From Candidatus Dojkabacteria bacterium (lineage in GTDB: Bacteria; Patescibacteriota; Dojkabacteria; JAHIVN01), in assembly GCA_016932045.1 (NCBI GenBank), contig JAFGDO010000003.1:12115-76114 (forward strand): DNA of 64,000 bases, in the 5' to 3' direction. Position 1 is the first letter of the stretch, and each line of letters begins with the position of its first letter. Under the pieces are notes generated by a model that worked only from the letters and a program-made list of their open reading frames with translations, had not been told where the DNA came from and did no database searches. Position numbers and translations under genes: made by a program. This document shows, in pieces, positions 11,136 to 51,539 of this stretch.

Positions 11136-12020
11136 ATGACTTTACCAGAAGCACTAAAACAATTTACCGAATATTTAGAAAAACAGGGCCGATCATTATC
11201 GACGATAACCGCATATTCTAAAGACATAGAACAGATGAAAGATTATCTTTCTCAGGAAGAAAGTGTGAAAAAAATAGAAGAGGTTAACACAAAACAGCTT
11301 AATAACTATATAAATAAAATAAGGTCCGATAAGAAGAGTAATTACACTTTAAAGACGATTTCCAGGAAAATTAATAGTATGAAGACTTTATTTAAATTTC
11401 TGATCTCTGAACAATATGTTGACAATAACCCTGCCTTATCAGTAAAACATCCCAAATATGAGATTTCCCCCCCAAGAATTCTTACCAAATTAGAATATTG
11501 CGCCTTAAGGGACGTTACAAGGACTAATCTCCGCTTATTTACAATCGTCGAACTGTTACTTCAAACAGGTGTACGCATCGGCGAGCTTGCAAGACTCACA
11601 ATTGAAGATGTCGCCCTCGATTCAAATACGCCTAAGATTAATGTAAAAGCATTTGGTAGTAACCCCGCAAGAGAGGTAGAATTAAATTCTCAAGCAGAGC
11701 TGGCACTAAGAAAATACCTTGAAATTAGGCCCCAAGCCGAAGATAAGGTTAATGCATTATTCGTAACAAAGAATGGAAACCCATTACTTGTCAGAAATAT
11801 ACGAACAAGCATCACACGATCGCTAAAAAAGATTGGAGTTAAAGGAGCAACAGTTAACGATATACGGAATACTTTCATCCTTCATCAACTTAAGAATGGG
11901 ATGCCAATTGATGTGCTAGCTATTACCGTGGGACACAAGAGGATTACAAGCACAAAAAGGTACTTAGAACTAATTGACGATAAACCAAAGAGGAAATCTA
12001 CAAAGATATTACCCTTATAG
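11136..12020 (+). CDS. tyrosine recombinase (XerC/XerD-like phage-integrase family)
   Basis: Conserved Arg (GVRIGEL), box II region IRNTFILHQL...ITVGHKRITSTKRY with the terminal Tyr. The first box II His appears replaced by Asn. Confidence 0.75.
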   Translation: MTLPEALKQFTEYLEKQGRSLSTITAYSKDIEQMKDYLSQEESVKKIEEVNTKQLNNYINKIRSDKKSNYTLKTISRKINSMKTLFKFLISEQYVDNNPALSVKHPKYEISPPRILTKLEYCALRDVTRTNLRLFTIVELLLQTGVRIGELARLTIEDVALDSNTPKINVKAFGSNPAREVELNSQAELALRKYLEIRPQAEDKVNALFVTKNGNPLLVRNIRTSITRSLKKIGVKGATVNDIRNTFILHQLKNGMPIDVLAITVGHKRITSTKRYLELIDDKPKRKSTKILPL

Positions 12021-13773: not shown

Positions 13774-13847
13774 GGGCCAGTAGCTCAGTTGGTGAGAGCA
13801 CGGTTCTTATAAAGCCGGGGTCGGTGGTTCGAGTCCACCCTGGCCCA
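13774..13847 (+). tRNA. tRNA-Ile (anticodon TAT)
   Basis: Manual fold. Acceptor GGGCCAG/CTGGCCC, D-arm GCTCAGTTGGTGAGAGC, anticodon stem CGGTT/AGCCG, loop CTTATAA giving anticodon UAU, T-arm GGTGGTTCGAGTCCACC, discriminator A. Confidence 0.75.
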
Positions 13848-13922
13848 CACTAGAAATATTTAGTAATTCGTAGCCTGTAATCCGAAGGAATTCCATCCAA
13901 GAGGGAGATTACAATATATAAA

Positions 13923-18651: not shown

Positions 18652-19128
18652 TCAAAACTTTTCAATTCCAGCAATATCTTCTCTTACCTGTCTCTTCATC
18701 TCCCTCTCTTTAATTTTTTTCCTCTTATCATACTTCTTCCTTCCTTTCCCAGCACCTATTTTCACTTTTAATTTCCCATTTTGACTAAATATCTCTAGTG
18801 GGATTATAGCCATTTTCTTGGCATCTTGGAGAATTCGTAATTCTTCAACCTCTCTTTTAGTTAATAGTAATTTCCTCCTTATCCTTGGATCGTAATCAGT
18901 AATATCCGCAAACTTCCACTTTGAAATGTGAGCATTTATAAGCCATACTTCACCCCTTTCAACTCTTACAAAGCTCTCTTTTAGACTGATATTCCCATTT
19001 CTTACAGACTTGACTTCGTACCCTCTCAAAACCATACCTGCTACAAAACTCTTAGAGATTTCATAATCAAACCTAGCACGTTTATTCTGAGCTAGTATCT
19101 TTTTACTCGAGGGATTCTTTGTATTCAT
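18652..19128 (-). CDS. smpB: SsrA-binding protein SmpB
   Basis: KILAQNKRARFDYEI...GYEVKSVR is the canonical SmpB N-terminus. Start set at the internal ATG (19128); the table ORF extends to 19200. Confidence 0.85.
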   Translation of the reverse strand: MNTKNPSSKKILAQNKRARFDYEISKSFVAGMVLRGYEVKSVRNGNISLKESFVRVERGEVWLINAHISKWKFADITDYDPRIRRKLLLTKREVEELRILQDAKKMAIIPLEIFSQNGKLKVKIGAGKGRKKYDKRKKIKEREMKRQVREDIAGIEKF

Positions 19129-21301
19129 CAACCTTTGTAAGTTCGACTCTAAATATCTTAGTTTCGTCAAGAATATACATAACTCTACCTTCGTTATCAA
19201 CTATTATGTCCTTTATGTTACTCAGATAGTTATTCTCTCCTCTATATATGATCTGTCCGACATATCTTCCCTGATCAGGAGTCAGACTGCCCCCCTTTGT
19301 CACAACAACAACACGCCTATTTGCACTATCTCCAACATAAACGAGAAAATCATCCAGCTCTAAACAGGAAGCATCATTAATAGACTTATCAAGTCCGACC
19401 AAAGCATATGGATCAAGTTTTTCGCCAAAATATCTTACAATACCATCTGCCTGAGTCAGTATATATATCTTGCCATCAATCTCCATGTCTTTCGCCCCTC
19501 CAAACTGTGTACTCGAAAGCCTGAGTTCCGGTAAAGAATAGCCCGAGGAATACTTCGTAATTTTCCTCACATCATTCTTACTAGGTCTAAGTAAGTACAA
19601 TATATTTGTTCCATCTGGAGTAACATAATTATCTATTTCTTTCACTTCGCCAACACTTGTTGAGGATAAACCCGCAAGTCTCTCAACTTTCTTCTCGTCT
19701 AGATGCAATTTTAAAATCCCCTCCCCTCCATCAAAAATTATCATGTCTCCCTCCCCATCGAAAACGATTGAAGACGGAGACCTTAAGTCTGTATCTTCAC
19801 CCACAACACTGTAAACCTCCCCCCCCTCTACACTTAACTCGTAAATAGTAGATAAATTAGGATCAGAAACATACAATCTCGAACCAAGCATAGTCATATC
19901 AGCTGCCTGCGCTCCTTCAATGTAGCCTGCAATATCTGTAATAATATTCCCATCATCAAGCAAAATTACTTTTCGAACGTCATCCATAATAGCATACCCC
20001 TCTTCTTCCTTTGCTCTGATCTCATCAGTCATGATGCCGTACTCTTTTATGCTACTCAGTGATCCTAGCGCCTCTTCCAAAACTGCAACTGCTTCGGCAA
20101 TATTTCCTGCAGCACCAAGATTTCTTCCATTATTAAATTTCTCATCAATATCCGAAAGTACTGCCATTATTTCAGTCTTTTTATCATTCGTATCACTATG
20201 CCTTTGTATACCTCTTATGCTGATGTAAAGCAAACAGACCACAACAATGATAAGAACTATAATCCCTCTAATTGAGGTTTTTGGACCAGCACCTTTAAGA
20301 TACATACCTCTCTTACTCATACCCAGAAGACCTTCCCAGATATGAGTCTTTCCGAATACGAGTAACTTCTGTCCAAATTCTTTAAGTTTTATAAGCACAA
20401 CCTTATATGTCTCTTTATCAGTAACTTTATCCTTTAGATTCTTAATTGAATTTCCTTTCCTTAGGTCATTGTGCCGTTTAGCCTTCTCTAGCTCTTCGTC
20501 CCTCCCGGTTTCTTGAGGGATTTTTAATTTAGACTCCTCATACTCTTTCACAGATACGTCATCTTCTTCCTCAACTTTTGTTTCCTTCTTGCCTATCTGA
20601 TTAATCTTCTCAGACTCAAATTTACTGTCTGTATGCAACAAGGCTTCTCCTGCTTTATTTGAGATTCGGAGTAGTAAGATTCCAAGTAGAGAATCCTGCT
20701 TTACCCCCTTAATACGATCAAAATTAAAATCCCGAACTACATTCTGCATATCCTTTTCCGAGATTGTAAGCCCGCCTTGTGGAGAAAGAAGGACAAAATT
20801 ATCGTTCTCCTTGAACTTCCCGCTTCCCGTTTTAATAAGTCCTCTACCAGAGAGATCCTTTAATCCATCTGATAAACTGATAAGTCTGTCATCCCGTTCT
20901 AGCAATATACTTCCCTCCCCCAAAATAGCCATGTATACATACTCCTTATAGGTCACTAAGGCTTCTATATTCAAGTCAATTCCCGACTCCGCTGCTACTT
21001 CTTCTCTATCAAGTAAATGCTCTAGCCTCTTTGCAGTAGACATAATTGCTTTTTCAAGTCTAGCTATAATGTTTCTCTCATTTCCCTCGTTGTAGTAAAC
21101 ATCTTGGAGATTTTCTGATAGCAGATCTCCTGCCATTCTGCTATCAAATTCCTCTGGAGCGCTCAAACTTATAACAACATAAAGCTTGCCAAATAAGGAA
21201 GCCCTTCCTCCCTCAGTAGGAGTTACAAAAATGCCTGACCATTTCCCTCCTTTTGGATCACCAGTGAAAAATGTTGTATCAAAAGAATATTTTTCTTCCA
21301 T
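19103..21301 (-). CDS. single-pass membrane protein with a cytoplasmic N-domain and an extracellular beta-propeller-like (NHL/YVTN-type repeat) C-domain
   Basis: TM IRGIIVLIIVVVCLLYISI at about aa 330. The C-terminal 390 aa has repeated hydrophobic-G/D-rich blade-like segments (YVSDPNLSTIYEL, IVFDGEGDMIIFDG, YVGDSANRRVVVV). Confidence 0.5.
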   Translation of the reverse strand: MEEKYSFDTTFFTGDPKGGKWSGIFVTPTEGGRASLFGKLYVVISLSAPEEFDSRMAGDLLSENLQDVYYNEGNERNIIARLEKAIMSTAKRLEHLLDREEVAAESGIDLNIEALVTYKEYVYMAILGEGSILLERDDRLISLSDGLKDLSGRGLIKTGSGKFKENDNFVLLSPQGGLTISEKDMQNVVRDFNFDRIKGVKQDSLLGILLLRISNKAGEALLHTDSKFESEKINQIGKKETKVEEEDDVSVKEYEESKLKIPQETGRDEELEKAKRHNDLRKGNSIKNLKDKVTDKETYKVVLIKLKEFGQKLLVFGKTHIWEGLLGMSKRGMYLKGAGPKTSIRGIIVLIIVVVCLLYISIRGIQRHSDTNDKKTEIMAVLSDIDEKFNNGRNLGAAGNIAEAVAVLEEALGSLSSIKEYGIMTDEIRAKEEEGYAIMDDVRKVILLDDGNIITDIAGYIEGAQAADMTMLGSRLYVSDPNLSTIYELSVEGGEVYSVVGEDTDLRSPSSIVFDGEGDMIIFDGGEGILKLHLDEKKVERLAGLSSTSVGEVKEIDNYVTPDGTNILYLLRPSKNDVRKITKYSSGYSLPELRLSSTQFGGAKDMEIDGKIYILTQADGIVRYFGEKLDPYALVGLDKSINDASCLELDDFLVYVGDSANRRVVVVTKGGSLTPDQGRYVGQIIYRGENNYLSNIKDIIVDNEGRVMYILDETKIFRVELTKVDEYKESLE

Positions 21302-21661
21302 CTAGAAAAATTTATACTTAAAAATATCTCGCATAAGCTTATTCTCTAAACTAAGAAAAGTCAGAATTAAACAAGAATTACTATCAAAACCATAACTGCA
21401 AGAACAAGAAAGATATGCAATATACTAAGCAGATTCAAGCATCCTGCAAGTTTTGTCCTTATAGCCCGATTCATCAAGAAAACTTGTCTTGCTATAAGAA
21501 CTGATACAAGAAAATATATAAACAGTAAAACAATTATAAATGTTTTTATAACTAGATGCAGTAAATTTCCTGTTTCCATAATAAAATTTTTACATAAATT
21601 TATTTTCTAACTCCTCCCATATTCAACTGTTGGCAGGTTGGCTTTAGACCAATCGTACTTA

Positions 21662-22282
21662 CTACTTAGGCTTCTTGACCATAAGATCCCTTAGATCCAT
21701 GATCTTGTCTCTTACCCAAGCGGGTTTAGATACCGAAAGAAAATCAAACTCTCTTCTTTCTCCCGCTGTCTGTACATAAACATCACCAAAATTAAAAAGC
21801 ATCGGGAAAAACCCTATATTCTCCTGCGTCGCATCAACTATACTTTCAAGTCCGGCCTCACTTATCTTATGATAAGCAAATGGACTAAAGTCAAAGTCAA
21901 TGACTCGTTCACTTGTAATTACATAAATATTAAAATACCAATCCAAAAACTTCATAAAGGCGTTTGTAATGATCAGTACATACCACATTACAATCGCCGA
22001 CAGAACTTGCCCTCGTGTAAGACTAAAACTCTCATAGATATCCGCATCTATGGCTTTCAAGAATATCAATACTCCTATAGGTATAAGTATAGAGATGGCT
22101 GTCATGACTACCCAACCAAAATTAGTAATAATATGTTTTCTAAGCATAATATAAACCCTTTCGTTTGGATTCTGAGTTTCAAATTCCAGCTTCTCAGGGA
22201 GAATTATAACAGAGCTTATAGCACCGTCCTTTTTCTCAGGTAAGATAGTATGAAGCGATTCTGCTTTGTGAGTCATTTTCAA
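21662..22282 (-). CDS. bacterial PH-domain (YdbS/YdbT-like) membrane protein
   Basis: Two TM helices followed by a PH-like segment ITSERVIDFDFSPF... Confidence 0.45.
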   Translation of the reverse strand: MKMTHKAESLHTILPEKKDGAISSVIILPEKLEFETQNPNERVYIMLRKHIITNFGWVVMTAISILIPIGVLIFLKAIDADIYESFSLTRGQVLSAIVMWYVLIITNAFMKFLDWYFNIYVITSERVIDFDFSPFAYHKISEAGLESIVDATQENIGFFPMLFNFGDVYVQTAGERREFDFLSVSKPAWVRDKIMDLRDLMVKKPK

Positions 22283-22369: not shown

Positions 22370-24169
22370 TTAAACCTTCCGGAAATAATAGGTAAGACTA
22401 AAAACCGGATCAACCTCACCAGAAGGTTGTACATTTCCGACCCATAAGTTCCAGATTTCCTTGAATATTTCACCATTTACATCAACCGAACCAGTACTAC
22501 CAATAACTTTTATACGTGCTGCTCTTCCAGAAGCATCACGACTAATTTGAAAATCTGCTAGTGTACCAACAGTATTCAAAAGCTGCCTAACATTTCCCGA
22601 ATTATAATAACCTTTATTTGCATACCACTCAAACATCGATTGGATCTCAGAAAGAGAATAACTATTTGTCCTCCACATCCAATCTGTATACGGCCCTTTT
22701 GCTGCAAAAGAAGAATCGTTAACAGACTGCAACCAAGAGAACCCACCACCGCAATTCCCATGGAAGTCCCAACACCAAGCCGGATTCCTATGAGTACCCG
22801 TACCCCAGCCATTATTATTATCAGATGAGTAATAAGCCTTTATAGTTGTTCCCCCTACTTGCAGGACCTTACCACTAGTCTCGTCAGCAGCCCATCTCTT
22901 GCCTTGCCCTCCTTTATAAACCTGGCATGCCGCACTAGTGCAAATAGGCCCACCATAAGCTACACCATACGAACGAGCCACTATCACCTGCGCCTTTACA
23001 GACTCCTCTGGCCAACAGTCCCATATAGAATTAGGATTGTCCAAGACATATTTATCTGGTCGTGAATTTACTTGAGCTTGCGAGCCGCACGCTTTATCAG
23101 GGATCTCCCCAAGTCCTGCAACATAATCCTCAATATTCATGGTACCATAGCCTATTACTTCAATTGTTCCTGAAACGTGACCAATGTATGAGCCTTGATA
23201 ATAAAAAGTCGCAATACTATCTGCCGGCATTCCGTGCTGCGCTCCTCCAAAAGCTCCATACTGAGAAAACCCCAGCCCGTGCCCTTGATATAAAGACCTG
23301 CCTCTCCCATAAAAGTAAAAGTCACCCGGTTCCAAAGGTTTTGTCCCACCATTCGCATCCCCAATAAGAGTATTCTCCTCTTCGATAATTCTTCGGTGCT
23401 CTTCTGTAAGTCCCTCAATCTGCTGTTCAACAGCTCCCATCTCCGCTCTTATACCTTCTTGTTTCCCGACACTGTAAGCAGCCATGGAAGCAAAATAAGA
23501 CTGCTGACTTTCAAGTTCAGCAATCCTTCCTGCTAACTTCTGATTCTCCTCATCTAAAAGTGCAATACTTCTCTCAATCTCTGCCCTCTCTTCTTTTAGA
23601 CTTTCTACTTCTAATGCTACCGATTCCACGCCAGCCAAATCATTATCAAGAATTGTTTCCCGATACTTATAATCTTTCCAGAATCCTTCCACCTCTCCAT
23701 TCTCTAACATTACATCTACAATACTCTGTCTGTTATAGATATAAAGATCCACCATTTTAACGTTCATTATTTTTTCGTTCTGTTCAAGTTCAAGTTCGCG
23801 AATCTTTAGTTCCTGATTATATTTTTCCAGTTCTGCTTGGTTTACATTCATTTCAGCCTCAAGCTGTTTCAGCTCAAATCCCACTCTCTCAATCTCTGAA
23901 CCAGCACTATTCTTCTGTGCTTCATAATAACTCGCCATCTCCTCAGCCTCCTGTAAACCTGCCTCAAGATTTTCTAGCTCACTTTGCTTGTCTTCTAGCT
24001 CTTTTTCAATTTCTTCAGCAGTTTTTCCATACACAGGGAAAATACTTACTAAACAAAAAGCCATAATGACCAATATAAATATTGGAAACTTAACACTTTT
24101 AAGGGTTTTGATAGACAGAATTTGGGTCATTTTAAATATAAACCAAATCTGCTTCACAATGGAAAGCAA
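22370..24169 (-). CDS. SpoIID/LytB-domain cell-wall protein with N-terminal signal/TM and long coiled-coil
   Basis: E/L/Q-rich coiled-coil (aa 50-270). C-terminal SpoIID-type region AQVIVARSYGVAYG...CTSAACQVYKGG. Confidence 0.65.
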   Translation of the reverse strand: MLSIVKQIWFIFKMTQILSIKTLKSVKFPIFILVIMAFCLVSIFPVYGKTAEEIEKELEDKQSELENLEAGLQEAEEMASYYEAQKNSAGSEIERVGFELKQLEAEMNVNQAELEKYNQELKIRELELEQNEKIMNVKMVDLYIYNRQSIVDVMLENGEVEGFWKDYKYRETILDNDLAGVESVALEVESLKEERAEIERSIALLDEENQKLAGRIAELESQQSYFASMAAYSVGKQEGIRAEMGAVEQQIEGLTEEHRRIIEEENTLIGDANGGTKPLEPGDFYFYGRGRSLYQGHGLGFSQYGAFGGAQHGMPADSIATFYYQGSYIGHVSGTIEVIGYGTMNIEDYVAGLGEIPDKACGSQAQVNSRPDKYVLDNPNSIWDCWPEESVKAQVIVARSYGVAYGGPICTSAACQVYKGGQGKRWAADETSGKVLQVGGTTIKAYYSSDNNNGWGTGTHRNPAWCWDFHGNCGGGFSWLQSVNDSSFAAKGPYTDWMWRTNSYSLSEIQSMFEWYANKGYYNSGNVRQLLNTVGTLADFQISRDASGRAARIKVIGSTGSVDVNGEIFKEIWNLWVGNVQPSGEVDPVFSLTYYFRKV

Positions 24170-24302: not shown

Positions 24303-24803
24303 TTAAAAGTGACTAACCTCTGAAACATCACATGCTCCAGGAAAGAAAAACTGGAAAACCGGAGAATCTCCCATTCCAGCGGCCGCGTCAAAACATTTAT
24401 TTGGATCTCTCAAACCTAAAAGACTCATCACAAGCCTTACAGCAAGATAACCACCAAAAACAAGTGCAAAACTAAAAACAACATTCTTTCCTCTTGTTTT
24501 TAATTCAGTTAGTTTCTGCTCATCCCCTCCGCTTAACATCCACTGAACACCTATAGATCCAACAACAAACATAAAATAAGGAATCGATAGAACCCAAATA
24601 GCGATAATCACATTTACAAAGATAGACTCGGCTTCGCGCAACCTCATCGGTTCGGCATAAATATCAGCTGCAAAAACCTTTGTATTAATCTGAGTTAGAA
24701 AAACAGTAAACCCCGTTGCAAAAGTCATTATTATTTTTTTTGCCTTTTTCATCAATGGATTAAGCAATGAATTATAATAAACGAATTGAGTCGTCTTATT
24801 CAT
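24303..24803 (-). CDS. VirB2/TrbC-like T4SS pilin-family paralogue
   Basis: Signal/TM, then a TM1 - SGGDEQKLTELKTRGK loop - TM2 module shared with five other ORFs in 26.4-29.8 kb. Confidence 0.5.
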   Translation of the reverse strand: MNKTTQFVYYNSLLNPLMKKAKKIIMTFATGFTVFLTQINTKVFAADIYAEPMRLREAESIFVNVIIAIWVLSIPYFMFVVGSIGVQWMLSGGDEQKLTELKTRGKNVVFSFALVFGGYLAVRLVMSLLGLRDPNKCFDAAAGMGDSPVFQFFFPGACDVSEVSHF

Positions 24804-24858
24804 AATTTAACTACAAATACGTATAAAATACAAGCTAGAAGCTCCTGCCAGGCTAAAG

Positions 24859-26433
24859 TTGAGCTTTCACACATACTTGTCTACTTTTTTAAAAATAGTA
24901 AAATTAGGAAGACACATAGATATGATAGAAAAAATACATAGCATAACTGAATATTTAAATAGACAACCTCTTTTATATGTTGGGCTAATACTTCTTGTTG
25001 CTTCTTTTTTGCTTTTTATCCCTAATGACCCTGATTTCCCCTGGCATCTTAAGTATGGAGAATTAACACTTGAACAAGGGCCAATATCACACGATCCATA
25101 TTCGCACACATTCGCAGACTATACTTTTTACGACTATCAATGGTTCACACATGTCCTCATGTACACCTTTTATAAACTAGGTGGTTTCACACTTGTTGCG
25201 ATATTGTATGGCGTAATTGTTCTTGCTGCCCTACTCTTTAGCGTGAATACTCCTATAAAGAAAGTTGTCACAAATAAAAGCAAGATAATACTACTGTTAG
25301 TGGGATTACTTGCTGTGAAACCGATTATCGGCATAAGACCTCAAATGGCATCCGTTCTCGGGATAGCTATCGTTTACTTCCTTACGATAAAATATCTTAG
25401 AACCAAAAGTAAGACAGTATTTCTCATACCTTTAGTAATACTCATCTGGGCAAATCTTCATCCCGGTTTTCTTTCAGGAATTATGGTTCTTCTTATTATT
25501 ATATTTTCTGAGATTTTAAAAGTAATACTAAGAAAGTTAGGAGTGTCACAAAAGCAAGACCCCTTTTATGAGAAAAAACCTCCAAGTTTTAAAATACTAA
25601 TCCTAGTACTTATTCTTTCATCTTGCGCTACCCTTTGCACTCCATTCTTCTATAATATAGTTAAACAGTCGGTACTTTTCTCACTAGACGCCTATGCCCA
25701 AGAGCACATAGTTGAATGGCTTGGCGTTAACTTTCAGGAATTGACTGGAAAATTTATTGTCATCTACATGCTGATCACAGTGGCATCAATATTTAGAAGG
25801 AAGTTTATGAACTTAACCGAGGTTCTGATTGTGGCAGTCTTCGGTTTCATGGCGCTACAAAGTGTACGCCATATACCGCTTTTTGTCATCGTTTCGATTC
25901 CAAGTATACTCGCAAGCCCTGATTGGAAGTTTTTAAACCGACTTGATAAGTTCAAGTCAACGTTCTGGCTATTTACAAAAAGTTCCTTTTTGACCGCAGG
26001 ACTTTTAGTTTTCCTATTTACTACTTTTCAATTTTTTATAATCAACTCGGACAGGAAGGCAATATACGGAGAAGTAAAATACCCTTATGAGGCTGTGCAA
26101 TTCCTAAAGGAAAAAAATTATGAGGGGAATATCTTTAATAATTACGGCTGGGGTGGTTTTTTAATATGGGAGTATCCTGAAAAAAAGACATTTGTCGATG
26201 GACGTATGACAAGTTGGCGAATAGATCATGTTTCTATCCTTGAGGAATATGTAGATCTTTCCGATCTTCTAACTCCAGACTGGCAGGAAAAGTTACAGCA
26301 ATATGAAGTAAGAATTATTCTTTCAGATACCTCTACTCCCTTATGCAACGTGCTTAGAAACTCTAGTGACTGGGAGCTTGTGTATGAAGACGACCTTTCA
26401 GTAGTACTCTATAAAAAAGAGCCTTACGAGTAA
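24859..26433 (+). CDS. polytopic membrane protein with C-terminal soluble domain (GT-C-like topology; possible glycosyltransferase)
   Basis: 524 aa. About 11 TM helices over aa 30-400, then a roughly 120-aa hydrophilic domain. Topology guess only. Confidence 0.45.
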   Translation: MSFHTYLSTFLKIVKLGRHIDMIEKIHSITEYLNRQPLLYVGLILLVASFLLFIPNDPDFPWHLKYGELTLEQGPISHDPYSHTFADYTFYDYQWFTHVLMYTFYKLGGFTLVAILYGVIVLAALLFSVNTPIKKVVTNKSKIILLLVGLLAVKPIIGIRPQMASVLGIAIVYFLTIKYLRTKSKTVFLIPLVILIWANLHPGFLSGIMVLLIIIFSEILKVILRKLGVSQKQDPFYEKKPPSFKILILVLILSSCATLCTPFFYNIVKQSVLFSLDAYAQEHIVEWLGVNFQELTGKFIVIYMLITVASIFRRKFMNLTEVLIVAVFGFMALQSVRHIPLFVIVSIPSILASPDWKFLNRLDKFKSTFWLFTKSSFLTAGLLVFLFTTFQFFIINSDRKAIYGEVKYPYEAVQFLKEKNYEGNIFNNYGWGGFLIWEYPEKKTFVDGRMTSWRIDHVSILEEYVDLSDLLTPDWQEKLQQYEVRIILSDTSTPLCNVLRNSSDWELVYEDDLSVVLYKKEPYE

Positions 26434-26465
26434 GGCTCTTCCAAATGACTTATTTAATAAAGAAT

Positions 26466-26927
26466 TTATGTTCCACTAGGCTTATTATTTACGTTTAGAG
26501 CATTATTAAATTCACCTCCGGCTCCGAATAGCCACAATACAACAAAAATTCCAACAATAGCTATAATCATTGCTGCAAACCCCATAAGTATTGCTTTCAC
26601 GGCGGCCTTTGATTCTTCTAGTTTAGATGCATCACCCTGGCTCGACATGAATTTAATTCCGGCCATAGCCGAATATATGATTGCAACGATAAAAACAACA
26701 ACAAAAAGGATCGTTAGTCCCCATTGAACTCTAACCTTTGCCCATGCAACAGGTCCTTCTTGTCCAGTTCCAAGTCCAAGGCCTGAAATAATTTTTTCTA
26801 TCCAATCAGGAACATAGTCTTGTGCATATACCGGATTTGCTGCATTAAAAAGTACAGCTCCAGCCACACCTGCAAAAATTGAAGCTTTCGAGAGTGTTTT
26901 AACTACTACATCTTTTACTCTTTCCAT
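26466..26927 (-). CDS. VirB2/TrbC-like T4SS pilin-family paralogue
   Basis: Signal peptide (AAN..VYAQ), TM1 ILFVVVFIVAIIYSAMAGI, loop KFMSSQGDASKLEESKAAVK, TM2 AILMGFAAMIIAIVGIFVV. Confidence 0.55.
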   Translation of the reverse strand: MERVKDVVVKTLSKASIFAGVAGAVLFNAANPVYAQDYVPDWIEKIISGLGLGTGQEGPVAWAKVRVQWGLTILFVVVFIVAIIYSAMAGIKFMSSQGDASKLEESKAAVKAILMGFAAMIIAIVGIFVVLWLFGAGGEFNNALNVNNKPSGT

Positions 26928-26999
26928 TATGTGTATATAACTAAAATAAACATTTAGATTTTATCAAATCTAACACAGATAAGTAAAGTTTGCAACATA

Positions 27000-27677
27000 T
27001 TAGTTACAAGACCAGTCAGAAGCTCCTTCAGAACACTCGCACTCACAGTCAGAATAAACATCTCCGCACTGGTCAGTTTTAGATTCATATTGCACATGAT
27101 CACCACAGACTGCAAGATTTTGGGCAAGATCAAACACACTCCCAACTCCAATTAGCCACGTTACAACACTTACGCCTATAAAGACAACTACAACAACCAT
27201 AAGACCCTTAAAGGCATTTGAAACCCATTTTCTTGCACTTTGAACCTTAGTTTCTTCTCCCATACTACTCATCCATCTAATTGCCCCTATCCCAATTGCA
27301 ACTATAAACGCAACAAAAAGAATAGCTGTGAAAAAAGTATATAAAAAAGCAATGATGGACCAAATACTAGCTGTGCCCTCCATACTCCAAAAGTTGACCG
27401 GCTTCAAAATATTTAAAACCAAACCTCCAGAACCAAATACTTTCTCTAGCCAATCATCACCATCAACTGGAATTATAACTTCGCCTTCAGATTTCTGCGT
27501 TGAGATTTCGCAACATACTTGCCCACTTGCACAAGGCTCGCATAAACTAGAATCTGCAGGCACATCGCATTGGCTCTCGTACCGACACCCATAGTAGCCT
27601 GCTTCAGCAACCCGTGGCTGAAAAGCCCCAACGACCAAAAATAAAGTAATGATTATGATAAATGTTATTCTCTTCAT
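27000..27677 (-). CDS. cysteine-rich secreted domain fused to VirB2/TrbC-like pilin module
   Basis: Signal peptide, then GYYGCRYESQCD...CEPCASGQVCCE. Pilin module TM1 - SSMGEETKVQSARK - TM2. Additional C-terminal Cys cluster CGDVYSDCECECSEG. Confidence 0.55.
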   Translation of the reverse strand: MKRITFIIIITLFLVVGAFQPRVAEAGYYGCRYESQCDVPADSSLCEPCASGQVCCEISTQKSEGEVIIPVDGDDWLEKVFGSGGLVLNILKPVNFWSMEGTASIWSIIAFLYTFFTAILFVAFIVAIGIGAIRWMSSMGEETKVQSARKWVSNAFKGLMVVVVVFIGVSVVTWLIGVGSVFDLAQNLAVCGDHVQYESKTDQCGDVYSDCECECSEGASDWSCN

Positions 27678-27711
27678 ATTGTTTACTTAATTTATAATGG
27701 CAATGTGAATT

Positions 27712-28266
27712 CTAGCTCCCAAGGATTTCATCAAGAAAAGAAAAATCTGTGATGTTGACACCAAGGATTCCTGCCATAACACCTAGAATTACAAGAAAGC
27801 CAAATGTTATCACAATAGCCATTAGTCCATTCTTTATTACCTTTTTTGCCTTCTGAAGCTTTTCTTCGCTGTCTCCCGCTGTTATCCATAAAAAGCCGCC
27901 GTATCCAATAACTCCGACAAGACCTGCAACTAACGCTGATATAGCTACAATTATTAATGTTTTGATAAATGTTTTTATATACGAAACATCAACATCTATA
28001 CCTATGAGACGAAAACTTTCCGGAGGCCCATCGTCTCCCCAAATCTTCGTTCCCCAACCTTCAAATGCTTCACAACACACCATACCACTTGGGCAATCCC
28101 CTCCACAATTTGATACCGCCACTTGCTTATCGGCACTGCACTGGCTTTCCCACTGACAAGTATATCCCGCCGCATGTACAGGATTAAATCGGCCAAATGA
28201 AACAATACAGAAAACAGTCGTCAGTAAGACTAAAATAGCTTTTTTCTTCATTTTATTTTTTCTCAA
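27712..28266 (-). CDS. cysteine-rich secreted domain fused to VirB2/TrbC-like pilin module (paralogue of 27000-27677)
   Basis: Signal peptide, then GYTCQWESQCSADKQVAVSNCGGDCPSGMVCCE with the same Cys spacing as its neighbour. Pilin module TM1 - AGDSEEKLQKAKK - TM2. Confidence 0.55.
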   Translation of the reverse strand: MRKNKMKKKAILVLLTTVFCIVSFGRFNPVHAAGYTCQWESQCSADKQVAVSNCGGDCPSGMVCCEAFEGWGTKIWGDDGPPESFRLIGIDVDVSYIKTFIKTLIIVAISALVAGLVGVIGYGGFLWITAGDSEEKLQKAKKVIKNGLMAIVITFGFLVILGVMAGILGVNITDFSFLDEILGS

Positions 28267-28610
28267 CTTACAAGAGTTCCCTGAACTCCAAGTAAACTAG
28301 CAAGAACTTTTACTATTAATGGGGCCAATGCAATAATTGCAAATCCTACTGCTGCTGCAGTAGCAATTTTCATACTCTTTGCCTCTTTCTCAGGATTTCC
28401 ACCCGCTGTCATACGAACGAATCCAGCATAGATAACGCTAAAAATAAACCCAAGTACAGCAAGCGGCGTTACAACACCACTCACTTTAGTTATAAGTTCG
28501 CCTATACTTTCAAGTGTAATGGGACTAGGAATAGATATAGCAAAAACAGGAGTATAACCAAGGATAAAAAACAATATAGTGAGTATTAAAATTTTTACTG
28601 TTTTTCTCAT
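28263..28610 (-). CDS. minimal VirB2/TrbC-like T4SS pilin
   Basis: 115 aa. Signal peptide, TM1 VVTPLAVLGFIFSVIYAGFV, loop RMTAGGNPEKEAKSMK, TM2 IATAAAVGFAIIALAPLIV. Four-nt ATGA overlap with the downstream gene suggests an operon. Confidence 0.55.
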   Translation of the reverse strand: MRKTVKILILTILFFILGYTPVFAISIPSPITLESIGELITKVSGVVTPLAVLGFIFSVIYAGFVRMTAGGNPEKEAKSMKIATAAAVGFAIIALAPLIVKVLASLLGVQGTLVS

Positions 28611-28680
28611 TTTATGAAAAAGTTAATCTTAGATGAAGATAGTTATTTAAAACATAAATATCGATCTTCTTGTTCCCCGA

Positions 28681-29796
28681 TTAGAGAAATATCTCACCAA
28701 TTCCAAGTATATCTAACCCTATGAAATTTAGCAAAATCGGTATCATAGCACCAAAAATGACTGCAGCGATAGCACTCACCGCAATACTCTTACCTTCCTT
28801 TATCTTTTCGGGATCATCGGTATTTAACATAATTCCCGCTTGAATGAATCGCACAACAGCTAGTGCTGTTACAACACCGACAAAGATTCTCATAACTGCT
28901 ATGATGATTCCTTTTTCCGATGAATTTATACAGCCCAGCTCTGTCCAAATATTTCCATCTGCCATTTCTACATTACATACTGATGCTTCTCCTCCATCAG
29001 CACTACAAGCACAAGTTGGATTTTCCCCTTTCCAACTACATACGCACAAACAACATGCCTCATTCATTTCTCCATCTTCACCTCTGCAAACTTCTTCACA
29101 TGTTAGAGTCGAAGGAAGCTCACTGCCCCCTGGGCCTGGACTTGGTCCTGGTGGAGTTGGATCGGAATCCTGCCAGCCACTGCTTCCACACCACCATTCT
29201 GCTCCAGCTGGAGCAGGACAGGTAGGAACATCAGTAATTCTCATGCTCTCTCCCTGACTAAAGCAAGAATTAACCCAAGGCCATATAAATCCTGTTCCAG
29301 GACAACAATCATTTGCCCCCCACTGACATCCTGCCATACATTTATTAGTACCAGCACATGTTAAAAAATCATCCTTAAGTATATCGGCAATATCAGAATT
29401 GTCTAGGGTTTCCTTTACTGCTCCACCTGCCGCCGTACAATAAAGTCCATAAGTGCATGCTCTATCATTTTTATAAAAATATGTCCTTGCCTCACTTACG
29501 TCATCATCGCTGCATTCACCAGGATTCATCTCCTTTATTTTCTCTGCTATTGCTGATCTTTTTGTCCCCCTAGATTCTGCACAACAATCGTCATTCCCCG
29601 AGACATCCGTATGTTCGTAACCATCATCACATCCCCATATGGCATCCGTTTTTGCATAAACAATATTCATTGCACCAATAGAGATTGATGCTATAAGAAT
29701 AATTATATACACAAGCGATCCTCTTACTATTGATCTTTTTAGATTATGAAGTATACGCATAAAATAAACAATTAGAACCCTTAGAAAAATTAACAA
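28681..29796 (-). CDS. large cysteine-rich ectodomain (about 27 Cys) fused to VirB2/TrbC-like pilin module
   Basis: N-terminal TM/signal, then a roughly 250-aa Cys-rich region (CCAESRG, CAGTNKCMAGCQWGANDCCPG, CCLCVCSWKGENPTCAC). Pilin module TM1 - NTDDPEKIKEGK - TM2. Confidence 0.55.
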   Translation of the reverse strand: MLIFLRVLIVYFMRILHNLKRSIVRGSLVYIIILIASISIGAMNIVYAKTDAIWGCDDGYEHTDVSGNDDCCAESRGTKRSAIAEKIKEMNPGECSDDDVSEARTYFYKNDRACTYGLYCTAAGGAVKETLDNSDIADILKDDFLTCAGTNKCMAGCQWGANDCCPGTGFIWPWVNSCFSQGESMRITDVPTCPAPAGAEWWCGSSGWQDSDPTPPGPSPGPGGSELPSTLTCEEVCRGEDGEMNEACCLCVCSWKGENPTCACSADGGEASVCNVEMADGNIWTELGCINSSEKGIIIAVMRIFVGVVTALAVVRFIQAGIMLNTDDPEKIKEGKSIAVSAIAAVIFGAMIPILLNFIGLDILGIGEIFL

Positions 29797-29809: not shown

Positions 29810-32383
29810 TTACAGATTTACATTATCCCCAGACCTCACCTCACCCCTAACTATCATCTCCGCAACCTTATTCTCAACCTGCTCCTGTACTACTCTTCTC
29901 ATTTCTCTTGCACCGAATACTGGATTATAGCCTAAATGAGCAAGTCTTTCTAGTAGTGCATCACTGTAGTTCAGTTTAATACCTTTATCCAAAAGTTTCA
30001 AGCGAACCTGCTCTACAAACTTCTTTGCAATCAGCTTAACATCCTCACGGGAAAGCGGCTTAAACATAATTATTTTATCGAAACGGTTTAAGAATTCTAT
30101 CCTAAATACTCTTTTTAATTCCTCCAAAGCCTGAGTTCTGACTTCTTCATATACTTTGTCTTGCTCAATAAGATCTGCAATCAATTTTGATCCGGCATTT
30201 GACGTTGCAATAATTATAGTATTTGAAAAATCTATCCTGCGTCCTAATCCGTCATCAAGATACCCTTCGTCCAAAACCTGCAGGAACAGATCCAGCACCT
30301 TTGGGTTTGCTTTGTCTATCTCATCAAGAAGAACTAGTGAAAAAGGATTGTCATAAACCGGTTCAGTTAAGAATCCTCCCTCAAACGATCCCTGCTCCGA
30401 AGTATAGCCAATTAATCTTTTCAAATTTTCCTCCTCATGATACTCGCTCATATCAAGCCTCACCATCCTCTTTTCGCTCCCGTAATAAACTTCTGCAACC
30501 GTTTTAGCTACCTCTGTCTTTCCAACACCTGTTGGTCCAAAAAACAAAAATGAAGCAATTGGTTTGCCAGCTTGTCCAAGCCCGCTTCTTGCTCGACGTA
30601 ATGCCCCACATACAGCATCAATTGCTTCGTTCTGGTCAATCACTCTCTTGTGCATTTCACCCTCAAGCTTAGCTAGTTTTTCCGTCTCACTCTCTTTGAT
30701 CGACCCCAGCTCTACCCCAACTTTTGAAGAAACTATCTTCGCAACCTCATCATACTCAATCGGCTTTTTACCTTTCAAATTTTTGAAATTAACAACAGTT
30801 TCCTTAAGCAGATTTATAGCTTTATCCGGAAGTACCCTGTCATATGCGAATTTATGTGAAAGCTCAATTGAAGCTTTAACACCTGAATATGCAATTTTTA
30901 TGTTGTACTCATTTTCAATCGTTGGAACCTCATCAATGACAATTTGAGTAGCCACTTCATCAGTAGGTATATTCATCTCTACTTCTGAGAATATACTTGC
31001 TAGCGCTTTATGAGGTCGGATGAATCTTGTAAACTGCCCTTTATCGCTTGTTACTATCATCCTAAAGTTGTGAGCATCATAAGCATTGACAATGATATTT
31101 ACGATCTCCCCGGTTATTTCTCTTCGCAAATTTAAAAGTTGATCAAAATTATCAAGTACAAGAATAACATTCTTTGATTGTGCTACCTCCTCAAATACTT
31201 TCTGCAATTTCTTCTTAAACGAATCTACGTTTTTTGAAGTTGAAAAGGCTTTGTTAAAATCGAAGCCGATAAGCCTCATATCTTGAAGCTTCGGAGGTAT
31301 ATCTTCTACTACCATCCTAACAGCAAGGCTTTTAATCAAAGTTGTTTTACCAACCCCAGGTTCTCCAAGAACTAGAACTCCACTCTTTTCTCCTTTTTCA
31401 AGCAGAGCAATAAGTTGATTTAATTCGTTCTCGCGGGCAAGTGACACTACAAATTCACCTTGAATAACAGCGTTAGTAAAATCGCGACAATAGGAGTTCA
31501 ACATAGGAGTAAAACGAGAAGTATATGCCCTGTTAACAGTCGTCTTCGGCTTGATGCTCACCTTATCTTTCCATACCTCCACATACCTTTGTTTCAATGC
31601 CTCGTTTTGCAACCAGAGTTTTATACCATCAAAGTCCTTGGAGATGATATTGAACCTCTGAAGATATTCTAAAAAAAACTTTTGAAGGATAACAAAAGTG
31701 AAGCTCTCCTCCCCTGCGTATTTAAAATTATTCTCAAAGGCAAATGAAAACGAGTCGGCAATAAGATCTCTTAGAACTTCAACTTTACCTTTACCGACCG
31801 TTGCTTGAGAAAGTAATCCCAGATCAAAATTCTCAAATGATAAACCAAGACGCTCAATTAGAATACGGGCCCTATTCAGCTTCAAAAGCTTCACAAATAA
31901 CTCTTGCAAATAGTCATTCTTGGGAATATTAAATATATAGTCAAGGAGCCAGACAGTATGATGATTTAAGTAGTCGGTTACTTCGATAGTAAGGTTAGTC
32001 CTGCCTCGCTCAAGATCCTTTCTCAATTTATGTAAATTCTTCACCCGAGCCTTATCAAGAAAAACTCCCCGGTCCCTTAAAAAATAAAGCGAATATAGAA
32101 AAATACAAACAAATATCCAAAAGGCAAGACCTGTAGCTCCTTCAACATTAACTATCCTTTGAAAGTAGTAGCCCTTTGTAACCTCGTAGACTATTATCCC
32201 GACTTCTGTAACAAAAACCAGCCAAAAAAGAATTCTCCCCAATACCACCTGGAAAACATTTTCAATCTTCCTTACCCCTTTACCATCTCGCAAATACCGC
32301 CAATCAACGGTAAATTTTACATCATTTAACTCGGGAATATTTATTCTCAATATCTCAGAATCATTCATAAATCGATATAGCAC
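29810..32383 (-). CDS. membrane-anchored ClpA/ClpB-family double AAA+ ATPase (Hsp100-like)
   Basis: Two N-terminal TM helices replace the Clp N-domain. D1 has Walker A GEPGVGKT but DNFD in place of the DE Walker B. D2 has GPTGVGKTE, Walker B LVLLDEID, sensor IIIATSNAG, GAREMRR. Confidence 0.7.
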   Translation of the reverse strand: MLYRFMNDSEILRINIPELNDVKFTVDWRYLRDGKGVRKIENVFQVVLGRILFWLVFVTEVGIIVYEVTKGYYFQRIVNVEGATGLAFWIFVCIFLYSLYFLRDRGVFLDKARVKNLHKLRKDLERGRTNLTIEVTDYLNHHTVWLLDYIFNIPKNDYLQELFVKLLKLNRARILIERLGLSFENFDLGLLSQATVGKGKVEVLRDLIADSFSFAFENNFKYAGEESFTFVILQKFFLEYLQRFNIISKDFDGIKLWLQNEALKQRYVEVWKDKVSIKPKTTVNRAYTSRFTPMLNSYCRDFTNAVIQGEFVVSLARENELNQLIALLEKGEKSGVLVLGEPGVGKTTLIKSLAVRMVVEDIPPKLQDMRLIGFDFNKAFSTSKNVDSFKKKLQKVFEEVAQSKNVILVLDNFDQLLNLRREITGEIVNIIVNAYDAHNFRMIVTSDKGQFTRFIRPHKALASIFSEVEMNIPTDEVATQIVIDEVPTIENEYNIKIAYSGVKASIELSHKFAYDRVLPDKAINLLKETVVNFKNLKGKKPIEYDEVAKIVSSKVGVELGSIKESETEKLAKLEGEMHKRVIDQNEAIDAVCGALRRARSGLGQAGKPIASFLFFGPTGVGKTEVAKTVAEVYYGSEKRMVRLDMSEYHEEENLKRLIGYTSEQGSFEGGFLTEPVYDNPFSLVLLDEIDKANPKVLDLFLQVLDEGYLDDGLGRRIDFSNTIIIATSNAGSKLIADLIEQDKVYEEVRTQALEELKRVFRIEFLNRFDKIIMFKPLSREDVKLIAKKFVEQVRLKLLDKGIKLNYSDALLERLAHLGYNPVFGAREMRRVVQEQVENKVAEMIVRGEVRSGDNVNL

Positions 32384-51526: not shown

Positions 51527-51539
51527 TTTGATATAAATA

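What the first reader, a model, noticed from the sequence alone, without database searches (positions are those of the whole stretch)
24303..29796. Expansion of six VirB2/TrbC-like pilin paralogues, three carrying cysteine-rich ectodomains
All six ORFs end in the same module: a roughly 20-aa hydrophobic helix, a short loop with a (S/A/T)xGDxE(K)...K signature, then a second hydrophobic helix. Three (27000-27677, 27712-28266, 28681-29796) add secreted domains with conserved Cys spacing (C..C..CxxGxVCCE). The largest carries about 27 Cys, including CC and CxC pairs suggestive of disulfide-knotted adhesin or tip domains. Multiple pilin paralogues with adhesive heads could reflect host-attachment specialisation or antigenic diversification.
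Basis: seen in the sequence. Interest (0 to 1): 0.7.

Follow-up and report, generated by a model that had tools for sequence, protein, structure and literature searches.

The report
Six-gene secretion-pilin set of Dojkabacteria
These six neighbouring genes are the conserved set of pilin-like subunits of the type IV secretion system that ultrasmall parasitic bacteria (Patescibacteria) need to live on their hosts. The gene set itself is already published, but the cysteine-rich outer domains on three of the subunits, including one very large one, have not been described.

Summary
Six minus-strand ORFs (24303-29796) share signal peptide, variable ectodomain, TM helix, charged loop and TM helix. 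P5 matches Pfam T4SS_pilin (PF18895) above threshold and four others just below it. P2 has no direct match and is linked to the rest by profile-profile alignment.

The genome is a Candidatus Dojkabacteria (Patescibacteria). The genes sit in its chromosomal T4SS locus with a VirB4-like ATPase, DUF5657 and a SpoIID-like enzyme.

Tandem arrays of divergent VirB2-like pilins in Patescibacteria are already published. There are six in Southlakia, each scored essential, and 441 arrays were surveyed in 2025. The core finding is therefore known.

- This is not a recent expansion. Each paralogue has a 1:1 orthologue in the same order in six other genomes (40-72% identity, against 18-25% between paralogues).
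- Only two proteins share the C..C..CxxGxVCCE cap.
- The largest protein has 24 Cys, not 27.

New here:
- The first gene belongs to a widespread family of 320-490 aa pilins. These have a hypervariable, Cys-rich ectodomain on a strongly conserved anchor.
- Small Cys caps come and go on different paralogues.

Best reading: a heteromeric pilus or stalk whose exposed termini carry host-contact domains. Assembly into a filament is inferred, not shown.

The parts
28681..29796 (-). P6 (array position 1): large pilin of 371 aa (359 aa from the alternative ATG at 29760). It has a signal peptide, a ~177-aa hypervariable Cys-rich ectodomain, a conserved membrane-proximal Cys motif (aa 226-292, nt 28921-29121) and a T4SS_pilin hairpin (aa 293-371). 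It contains 24 Cys.
   Evidence: (PF18895 25.2 bits).
28263..28610 (-). P5 (position 2): canonical small pilin of 115 aa with no Cys. It is the most conserved member (60-72% identity to its orthologues) and is the candidate major subunit.
   Evidence: PF18895 43.1 bits, above the gathering score; AF2 pLDDT 84, hairpin H36-67/H73-107.
27712..28266 (-). P4 (position 3): 184 aa (179 aa from the ATG at 28251). It is a pilin with an N-terminal six-Cys cap (nt 28060-28170).
   Evidence: 22.9 bits; NF045849 E 1.3e-5.
27000..27677 (-). P3 (position 4): 225 aa. It is a pilin with an N-terminal six-Cys cap (nt 27498-27599) and a conserved C-terminal Cys tail (LAQNLAVCG...C.C..W.C).
   Evidence: (19.2 bits).
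26466..26927 (-). P2 (position 5): 153 aa, no Cys. It is a pilin-like hairpin with no direct Pfam hit.
   Evidence: NF045848 E 6e-4, NF045849 E 2.4e-3; hhalign to the P3 group 97.8%.
24303..24803 (-). P1 (position 6): 166 aa (probably 149 aa from the ATG at 24752). It is a pilin with a conserved C-terminal tail, C..FQFFFP..C, containing 2 Cys.
   Evidence: (21.4 bits).
24859..26433 (+). 524-aa polytopic (~10 TM) membrane protein encoded inside the array on the opposite strand. It matches no known family. It occupies the same place in L004/L005 and L007 (43% identity) and is absent from the L002 and L003 arrays.
22370..24169 (-). SpoIID-like cell-wall enzyme with an N-terminal anchor and a coiled coil. 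It is syntenic with the array in all Dojkabacteria loci and is a candidate VirB1-type wall-opening factor.
   Evidence: (PF08486 E 2.3e-7).
21662..22282 (-). 206-aa two-TM protein. Its orthologues give weak bacterial PH-domain hits. It is a syntenic T4SS-locus gene.
21370..21606 (-). DUF5657 small two-TM protein (called as ~70 aa), a syntenic T4SS-locus gene.
   Evidence: (PF18901 E 4e-12).
19103..21301 (-). 732-aa single-TM protein with no family match, syntenic in all loci (749-754 aa).
15149..17611 (-). VirB4/T4CP-like ATPase of 820 aa with an N-terminal TM helix.
   Evidence: DUF87, TrwB_AAD_bind, TraG-D_C; orthologues also carry DUF8128.
29810..32383 (-). ClpB/ClpC-like double AAA+ ATPase of 857 aa with two N-terminal TM-like helices, immediately upstream of P6. 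It is syntenic in L003 and L004 and absent in L002. Whether it belongs to the system is uncertain.

Best explanation
The six genes are the complete, ancient pilin set of the chromosomal type IV secretion system of a Candidatus Dojkabacteria (Patescibacteria). This system is derived from monoderm conjugation machinery.

Shown:
- All six are homologous members of the T4SS_pilin (PF18895) kind.
- Each has a Sec-type signal peptide and a two-helix hairpin.
- The lysine-rich loop is predicted to be cytoplasmic, and the N- and C-termini are predicted to be outside.
- All Cys-rich sequence sits on those outside termini.
- The six are six distinct orthogroups kept in the same gene order across related and more distant genomes.

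Inferred:
- As with VirB2, TraA and PrgF, the membrane-inserted hairpins are extracted at the T4SS platform, powered by the VirB4-like ATPase. They polymerise into a tube or stalk that crosses the cell wall towards the host cell. The charged loop lines the lumen and both termini lie on the outer surface.
- Because the six are non-interchangeable, they probably build one heteromeric structure.
- The small, most conserved P5 would be the bulk subunit.
- P6 has a conserved anchor, a disulfide-rich stem and a hypervariable head. It would be a low-copy distal or surface subunit that contacts the host, doing the job VirB5 or minor pilins do elsewhere.
- The small six-Cys caps on P3 and P4 would be optional, fast-evolving surface decorations.
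For: Family:
- PF18895 hits for 5 of 6 proteins, one above the gathering score.
- 21 of 22 P6-family members hit PF18895, and all 37 P5 orthologues carry it.
- hhalign links the six orthogroups: P5-P4 96%, P4-P3 98%, P3-P2 98%, P5-P1 88%, P6-P5 79%.
- Weak hits to the Mollicutes ICE pilin-like family NF045849.

Topology, measured over 23 array proteins:
- 130 of 135 Cys lie in the N-ectodomain or C-tail, and 0 of 544 loop residues are Cys.
- K+R make up 17.8% of the loop, against 7.0% of the N-ectodomain and 4.1% of the C-tail.
- AF2 of P5 gives a confident hairpin (pLDDT 84).
- AF2 of P6 gives a hairpin at pLDDT about 80-85.

Context:
- The VirB4-like ATPase, DUF5657, the SpoIID-like enzyme and the 732-aa protein are syntenic in four loci.

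Ancient non-redundant set:
- Positional 1:1 orthologues share 40-72% identity, against 18-25% between paralogues.
- Six modules per array occur in L002, L004 and L007. L003 has six plus a broken duplicate, L009 has six and L008 has seven.
- Every ORF scores best with the HMM of its positional orthogroup, including in the distant L008 and L009.
- In Southlakia the six tandem PF18895 genes SEML1_0014-0019 are each scored GD/ES/ES in Tn-seq (PMC10633639 supplement).

Variable head on a conserved anchor, in the P6 family:
- Mean pairwise identity is 64% in the pilin module, 42% in the proximal Cys motif and 13-20% in the ectodomain.

Pilus precedent:
- PrgF is a VirB2-like pilin essential for Gram-positive conjugation, and it has the same loop-in-lumen, termini-out geometry (bioRxiv 10.64898/2025.12.18.695078).
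- Tubular structures that may be T4SS pili were seen by cryo-EM in a cultivated patescibacterium (10.64898/2026.06.21.733656).
- T4SS pilins are among the most highly expressed unknown-function genes in Patescibacteria enrichment cultures (PMC10936435).
Against: - No patescibacterial T4SS pilus has been isolated or solved.
- There is no sequence similarity to TrbC/VirB2 (PF04956) or to any solved pilin.
- A ~250-aa ectodomain on every subunit could not pack in a VirB2-type filament, so P6 must be substoichiometric. This is assumed, not shown.
- No recognisable polytopic VirB6 homologue was found in the window.
- The P6 ectodomain model has low confidence (pLDDT about 45-55) and matches no adhesin fold or Pfam domain.
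- Disulfide formation is inferred only from location and from mostly even Cys counts.
- Tn-seq essentiality of small tandem genes may partly reflect polar effects.
Confidence: 0.6

Rival explanations
1. Membrane-resident reading. The two-helix module is only a membrane anchor, or a ring or channel component of the T4SS translocon. The proteins stay in the cytoplasmic membrane and display their Cys-rich termini in the wall zone as surface proteins. No extracellular filament is made.
For: - No pilus has been demonstrated for this family.
- The organism is a monoderm.
- The large ectodomains (P6 here, and positions 3 and 6 in L008/L009) are hard to fit into a tight filament.
- Helical-hairpin fold matches are non-specific.
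- No VirB6-like assembly platform was identified in the window.
Against: - The hairpin with a short charged loop and both termini outside is exactly the VirB2/PrgF design.
- The anchor is the most conserved part (64% identity in the P6 family, with a nearly invariant loop). That conservation is more than a passive anchor would need.
- PrgF, a protein of similar design, behaves as a lumen-forming pilin in a Gram-positive T4SS.
- Tubes have been seen at a patescibacterium-host interface.
Confidence: 0.25
2. This is a lineage-specific expansion of interchangeable pilin paralogues used for antigenic variation or for alternating between hosts, as proposed for the VirB2 paralogues of Bartonella and Anaplasma.
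For: - The paralogues are highly divergent (18-25% identity).
- The ectodomains and caps are hypervariable between species.
- L003 carries a tandem second copy of the large pilin with a completely different ectodomain.
- The published survey offers the same speculation (PMC12102498).
Against: - The number and order are fixed, with 1:1 orthology of all six across seven arrays, including distant ones.
- There are no DNA repeats or conversion tracts between paralogues in the window.
- Each orthogroup has its own conserved hallmark, such as the P3 and P1 C-tails and the P6 stem.
- All six Southlakia genes are individually scored essential.
- Variation is concentrated in the appended domains, not in paralogue number.
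Confidence: 0.1
3. The genes are unrelated to the T4SS. They are a cluster of generic small Sec-exported membrane or Cys-rich secreted proteins that merely lie near T4SS genes.
For: - Most Pfam scores are below the gathering threshold and P2 has no hit.
- Hydrophobic helices attract spurious profile hits, as the noise hits show.
Against: - P5 and all 37 of its orthologues are bona fide PF18895.
- All six are linked by profile-profile alignment through the charged loop.
- Synteny with the VirB4-like ATPase and other T4SS-locus genes is conserved.
- The same arrangement lies inside the essential T4SS cluster of Southlakia.
Confidence: 0.03

Closest known systems
Patescibacterial T4SS pilin arrays: Southlakia epibionticum SEML1_0014-0019 (Wang et al. 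2023, PMC10633639), and the 441 arrays of 2-11 PF18895/VirB2-like genes surveyed by Quinonero-Coronel et al. 2025 (PMC12102498)
   Same: - Six tandem, sequence-divergent (~25% identity) PF18895 genes.
- Located in a chromosomal T4SS locus with a VirB4-like ATPase.
- Monoderm-type system with no relaxase evident.
- Same two-TM hairpin design.
   Different: - The Southlakia pilins are all small (103-185 aa).
- Here the first gene is 371 aa with 24 Cys, and two more carry six-Cys caps.
- A polytopic membrane gene interrupts the array.
- The fixed order and 1:1 orthology of the six subtypes, and the Cys-rich domains, are not described in the papers I could search.
VirB2/TrbC/TraA conjugative pilins of Gram-negative T4SS (Pfam PF04956; solved pili such as R388 TrwL, PDB 8s6h)
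   Same: - Signal peptide.
- Two hydrophobic helices joined by a short charged cytoplasmic loop.
- Termini outside.
- Encoded with a VirB4 ATPase.
   Different: - No PF04956 hit at E up to 1 and no sequence hit to any solved pilin.
- Classical systems use one major pilin plus VirB5, not six paralogues.
- None carries a ~250-aa ectodomain.
- The fold match is not specific.
PrgF (pCF10) and the pilin-like proteins of Mollicutes ICEs (NCBIfam NF045849 Mbov_0395 family, NF045848 MMCAP2_0566 family): VirB2-like proteins of monoderm (MPF-FATA) T4SS
   Same: - Monoderm T4SS context.
- Two-TM hairpin with a charged loop.
- Weak profile hits of P5 (E 2.9e-6), P4 (1.3e-5) and P2 to NF045849, and of P2 and P3 to NF045848.
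- NF045848 is likewise a pilin-like module with an added domain.
   Different: - All scores are below the NCBIfam cut-offs.
- PrgF is a single gene.
- Those systems conjugate DNA, whereas patescibacterial loci mostly lack relaxases.
Tandem VirB2 paralogues of Bartonella and Anaplasma (proposed antigenic variation)
   Same: Several tandem virB2-like genes in a host-associated bacterium (cited in PMC12102498).
   Different: Here the paralogues are ancient, fixed in number and order, and 1:1 orthologous between genomes. That pattern argues for division of labour rather than variation.
VirB5 tip adhesin and the minor-pilin tip complexes of type IV pili (functional analogy only)
   Same: The proposed role of P6: a low-copy, host-contacting subunit with a variable head on a conserved assembly module.
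   Different: No sequence or fold relationship was detected. P6 is itself a pilin-module protein.

Membership tests
Pfam PF18895 T4SS_pilin | Profile match at or above the gathering score (26.6 bits) | tested here: met
   P5 scores 43.1 bits. P6 (25.2), P4 (22.9), P1 (21.4) and P3 (19.2) fall just below, and P2 has no hit. The feature is therefore strictly met by one protein. The others are joined to it by hhalign and by their orthologues.
Pfam PF18895 T4SS_pilin | Two transmembrane helices joined by a short charged loop, preceded by a signal peptide | tested here: met
   Hydropathy shows two helices in all six proteins. AF2 gives a hairpin in P5 and P6. Positive-inside and Cys statistics support the topology. 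No dedicated signal-peptide or topology predictor was available.
Patescibacterial T4SS pilin array (Wang 2023; Quinonero-Coronel 2025) | Two to eleven tandem pilin genes with ~25% mutual identity, allowing an interposed non-pilin gene | tested here: met
   Six genes at 18-25% identity, with one interposed gene.
Patescibacterial T4SS pilin array (Wang 2023; Quinonero-Coronel 2025) | Located near a Patescibacteria-type virB4 in a patescibacterial genome | tested here: met
   The VirB4/T4CP-like ATPase at 15149-17611 lies 6.7 kb from P1. Proteins identical to those in the window are annotated Candidatus Dojkabacteria. VirB4 phylogeny was not done.
Patescibacterial T4SS pilin array (Wang 2023; Quinonero-Coronel 2025) | Required for epibiotic growth | not testable with these tools
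   Known only for Southlakia Tn-seq.
TrbC/VirB2 pilin (Pfam PF04956) | Profile or sequence similarity to TrbC/VirB2 or to solved conjugative pilins | tested here: not met
   No PF04956 hit at E up to 1 for any of the six proteins. A profile of the P5 group against PDB sequences finds only Sec61-gamma TM noise. Two Southlakia pilins do hit PF04956 at about 1e-6, so the link is indirect.
TrbC/VirB2 pilin (Pfam PF04956) | Fold equivalent to the VirB2 helical hairpin | tested here: inconclusive
TrbC/VirB2 pilin (Pfam PF04956) | Polymerises into an extracellular, lipid-containing filament | not testable with these tools
   Needs cryo-EM or biochemistry. Multimer modelling was not available.
Antigenically variable VirB2 paralogue families (Bartonella/Anaplasma type) | Lineage-specific duplications with variable copy number and interchangeable paralogues | tested here: not met
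   There are six fixed orthogroups in conserved order across seven arrays. There are no inter-paralogue DNA repeats.
VirB5-type tip adhesin | Sequence or fold similarity to VirB5/TraC | tested here: not met
   No Pfam domain other than PF18895 occurs in 22 P6-family proteins. There is no significant Foldseek hit, and the ectodomain model has low confidence.

The most novel reading that the evidence does not exclude
Patescibacteria may build a heteropolymeric T4SS pilus or stalk from six dedicated, non-interchangeable VirB2-like subunits. No characterised conjugative pilus is built this way.

In Dojkabacteria and many other lineages, the first subunit would be a giant pilin whose hypervariable, disulfide-rich head sits at the distal end and determines which host cell is recognised. 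The modular Cys-rich caps that hop between the exposed termini of the other subunits would tune the surface of the filament.
Probability: 0.3. Interest if true: 0.8.

Novelty: new variant of a known kind. Interest (0 to 1): 0.45.

Why it matters
The T4SS is one of the few machines shown to be essential for the epibiotic life of Patescibacteria, a group that makes up a large share of bacterial diversity. Its function is unknown, and how these cells recognise and tap a specific host is an open question.

Three results here turn that question into testable hypotheses:
- The six pilins are six ancient, ordered subtypes rather than redundant copies.
- A widespread subtype carries a hypervariable Cys-rich head on a strongly conserved anchor.
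- Cys-rich modules are confined to the two termini that a VirB2-type filament exposes.

Together these give concrete candidates for the host-contact determinant and for subunit roles. They can be tested in Southlakia or Nanosynbacter genetics and by cryo-ET.

The core observation, tandem divergent VirB2-like pilins in a patescibacterial T4SS locus, is nevertheless already in the literature. The increment is moderate.

Tried and rejected
- Foldseek of the P6 model against PDB gave no hit at E up to 0.001. The ectodomain model is too poor (pLDDT about 45-55) to interpret.
- A profile search of the P5 orthogroup against all PDB sequences gave no pilin, only Sec61-gamma TM noise.
- Pfam on 22 P6-family proteins found no domain in the ectodomains.
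- A genome-contig scan with the P6 alignment returned only 6 loci, two of which duplicate loci already held. Taxonomic breadth therefore could not be mapped. Cluster look-ups of distant large pilins gave almost no names.
- The promoter and terminator scan was no better than shuffles: 22 promoter-like sites against 18.1 +/- 4.2, and 3 terminators against 4.4. Operon structure is inferred only from spacing.
- Rfam found only three tRNAs in the window.
- Searching for a seventh copy found none in the window. The DUF5657 ORF at 21370-21606 scored E 0.81 and belongs to a different family.
- Recent gene conversion between paralogues was considered and rejected, because there are no DNA repeats. The P3 and P4 caps are related to each other (protein score 71 against 26-49 to other caps; DNA alignment score 58 against a null of 28 +/- 7), but only at 61% DNA identity.
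- A haem- or metal-binding reading of the Cys-rich regions was considered. I saw no CxxCH motif on reading the P6 sequence (not systematically scanned), and Cys counts are mostly even. Metal binding is not excluded.
- The 524-aa, 732-aa and 206-aa neighbours could not be identified by Pfam, NCBIfam or PDB. No VirB6 could be named.
- One-to-one matching of these six subtypes to the six Southlakia pilins could not be done, because no Southlakia sequences were accessible.

Full report
**Observation**

The region holds six minus-strand ORFs: P1 24303-24803, P2 26466-26927, P3 27000-27677, P4 27712-28266, P5 28263-28610 and P6 28681-29796. All have an N-terminal signal-peptide-like segment ending in a (V/A)xA site. 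This is followed by two ~19-residue hydrophobic helices joined by a charged loop: SGGDEQK, SQGDASK, SMGEETK, AGDSEEK, AGGNPEK or NTDDPEK.

An HMM built from the six modules retrieves only these six among 359 six-frame ORFs of the window. Their E-values run from 6e-33 to 3.5e-23, and the next best is 0.4. The paralogues are 18-25% identical and share no DNA-level repeats.

- P3 and P1 continue beyond the second helix with Cys-containing tails.
- Only P3 and P4 share the C..C..CxxGxVCCE cap.
- P6 has 24 Cys.
- A 524-aa polytopic membrane gene on the + strand splits the array.
- The starts of P6, P4 and P1 are ambiguous.

**What the proteins are**

Pfam PF18895 (T4SS_pilin) matches P5 at 43.1 bits, against a gathering score of 26.6. 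P6 (25.2), P4 (22.9), P1 (21.4) and P3 (19.2) fall just below, and P2 has no hit. NCBIfam gives sub-threshold hits to the Mollicutes ICE pilin-like families NF045849 and NF045848.

Profile-profile alignments of the orthogroups chain all six together: P5-P4 96%, P4-P3 98%, P3-P2 98%, P5-P1 88%, P3-P1 84% and P6-P5 79%. In addition, 21 of 22 P6-family proteins and all 37 P5 orthologues carry PF18895.

There is no hit to TrbC/VirB2 PF04956 and none to any solved pilin by sequence.

**Topology**

I measured 23 array proteins from four genomes:
- 130 of 135 Cys lie in the N-terminal ectodomain or the C-terminal tail.
- None lies in the 544 loop residues.
- K+R make up 17.8% of the loop, against 7.0% of the N-ectodomain and 4.1% of the C-tail.

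This places the loop in the cytoplasm and both termini outside, which is the VirB2/PrgF arrangement described.

AF2 gives a confident hairpin for P5 (pLDDT 84, H36-67/H73-107). It also gives a confident hairpin for the C-terminal module of P6 (pLDDT about 80-85). The P6 ectodomain is not reliably modelled.

**Organism and context**

Proteins identical to P6, P3 and P5 are annotated in a Candidatus Dojkabacteria MAG, with locus tags JW766_01175, JW766_01160 and JW766_01170.

The window's gene order is:
- GroES/GroEL
- a membrane-anchored ClpB-like ATPase
- P6, P5, P4, P3, P2
- the 524-aa membrane protein on the + strand
- P1
- a SpoIID-like enzyme
- a 206-aa two-TM protein
- DUF5657
- a 732-aa protein
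- SmpB
- a 177-aa protein
- the VirB4/T4CP-like ATPase

It recurs in three other Dojkabacteria-like contigs. This is the chromosomal T4SS locus typical of Patescibacteria.

**Comparative result that changes the interpretation**

Each of the six paralogues has a positional 1:1 orthologue in L002, L003 and L004 at 40-72% identity (37-49% for the truncated position-5 ORF of L003). This is far above the 18-25% seen between paralogues.

Arrays hold six modules in L002, L004, L007 and L009. L003 has six plus a broken duplicate, and L008 has seven through a duplicated position 5. The large protein always comes first.

Orthogroup HMMs assign every ORF of L007, L008 and L009 to the subtype expected from its position. 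This holds even where the P6 module is only 31-36% identical. The set is therefore ancient and ordered, not a recent expansion.

**The Cys-rich parts**

The P6 family comprises 22 close relatives. With the family profile, 2520 representative clusters match at E up to 1e-3 and 698 at E up to 1e-10. The weaker of these may match through the shared pilin module alone. Most of the best 150 are 320-490 aa.

Mean pairwise identity within the P6 family differs sharply by region:
- 64% in the pilin module
- 42% in the membrane-proximal motif (LTCxExCxGE..C..CVC...WTELGCI)
- 13-20% in the ~180-260-aa ectodomain

Among 116 further full-length representatives, the median Cys count is 16 (range 6-30), and the count is even in 80%.

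The small six-Cys cap is optional and mobile:
- It sits on positions 3 and 4 in the window.
- It sits on position 2 in L003, L004 and about a third of the P5 orthologues.
- It is absent from L002.

The window's P3 and P4 caps resemble each other more than they resemble caps on orthologues.

In L008 and L009, Cys-rich extensions sit on the N-terminus of position 3 and on the C-termini of positions 5 and 6. Every such addition lies on a terminus predicted to be outside.

**Literature**

- Wang et al. [quoted passage not shown] Their supplement lists six tandem PF18895 genes, SEML1_0014-0019. These are 103-185 aa and each is scored GD/ES/ES. Two of them also hit PF04956.
- Quinonero-Coronel et al. 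2025 (PMC12102498) found 441 arrays of 2-11 pilin genes with a mean identity of 25%. They raised antigenic variation or host adaptation as explanations.
- A 2025 review highlights the six VirB2-like pilins.
- PrgF has been shown to be a VirB2-like pilin essential in a Gram-positive T4SS.
- Possible T4SS pili were seen by cryo-EM in a cultivated patescibacterium.
- None of the papers found mentions large or Cys-rich pilins, or fixed subtypes.

**Mechanism**

Shown: homology to T4SS pilins, topology, T4SS context, six fixed subtypes, and variable exposed termini.

Inferred: Sec export and membrane insertion, followed by extraction and polymerisation at the T4SS driven by the VirB4-like ATPase. 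The loop would face the lumen and the termini the surface. P5 would be the bulk subunit. P6 would be a substoichiometric distal or host-contact subunit. The caps would be surface decoration. The SpoIID-like enzyme would open the wall.

The main rival is that the proteins never leave the membrane. The antigenic-variation reading is disfavoured by the 1:1 orthology.

**Verdict**

This is a real feature and its family was correctly identified. As a phenomenon it is already published. The added value is the ordered six-subtype architecture and the family of large, hypervariable, Cys-rich pilins. Interest is moderate.

Noticed in passing
window 29810-32383 (-): A ClpB/ClpC-like double AAA+ ATPase (857 aa) carries two N-terminal TM-like helices (aa 46-64 and 84-102). 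It sits directly upstream of the pilin array. It is syntenic in L003 and L004 but missing in L002. A membrane-anchored unfoldase next to a pilin operon is unusual.
   Followed up: partly
window 24859-26433 (+): A 524-aa protein with about 10 TM helices is encoded inside the array on the opposite strand. It has no Pfam, NCBIfam or PDB match. It is conserved at the same spot in L004/L005 and L007 (43% identity). Its DPDFPW and C-terminal NNYGWGGFLIW...FVDGR motifs recall GT-C glycosyltransferases. That resemblance is from memory only and was not tested. In Southlakia a divergently oriented VirB6-like gene sits next to the pilin array.
   Followed up: partly
L003 10574-10971 and 11540-11938: A ~400-nt direct repeat at 98-99% identity creates a tandem second copy of the large pilin. 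The second copy has a completely different Cys-rich ectodomain (23 Cys) and a 1-nt frameshift near its 3' end. It could be an alternative-head cassette, a decaying duplicate or an assembly artefact.
   Followed up: partly
window 22370-24169 (-): A SpoIID-like cell-wall enzyme with a long N-terminal coiled coil is syntenic with the pilin array in every Dojkabacteria locus. The published survey found that most pilin-bearing Patescibacteria lack VirB1, so this enzyme may be the functional substitute.
   Followed up: partly
window 13774-13848 (+); 9325-9398 and 9762-9836 (-): The window has a tRNA-Ile with anticodon UAU, which is unusual for bacteria, and two tRNA genes with CAU anticodons within 500 nt of each other.
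   Followed up: no
window 51050-52874 (-): yidC and jag/KhpB (R3H) lie next to each other, and cumulative GC skew flattens near 60-64 kb. This suggests the replication origin is close, which would fit the reported placement of patescibacterial T4SS loci near oriC.
   Followed up: no
window 630-2450 (-), 2569-3618 (-), 11136-12020 (+): Three other genes stood out: a eukaryotic/archaeal-type ATP-dependent DNA ligase (ligase A N, M and C domains), a Fic-domain protein and a tyrosine recombinase (XerC/D-like).
   Followed up: no
window 27498-27599 and 28060-28170 (-): The six-Cys caps of the neighbouring P3 and P4 resemble each other (61% DNA identity; protein score 71) more than they resemble the caps on orthologues in other genomes (26-49). 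This hints that caps are copied between paralogues within a lineage.
   Followed up: yes
L008 2165-3337; L009 8758-9522 and 10752-11792: In more distant arrays, position 5 is duplicated (L008). Large Cys-rich extensions also sit on other subunits: the N-terminus of position 3, and the C-termini of positions 5 and 6, the last reaching 347 aa. The decorated subunit therefore differs between lineages.
   Followed up: partly
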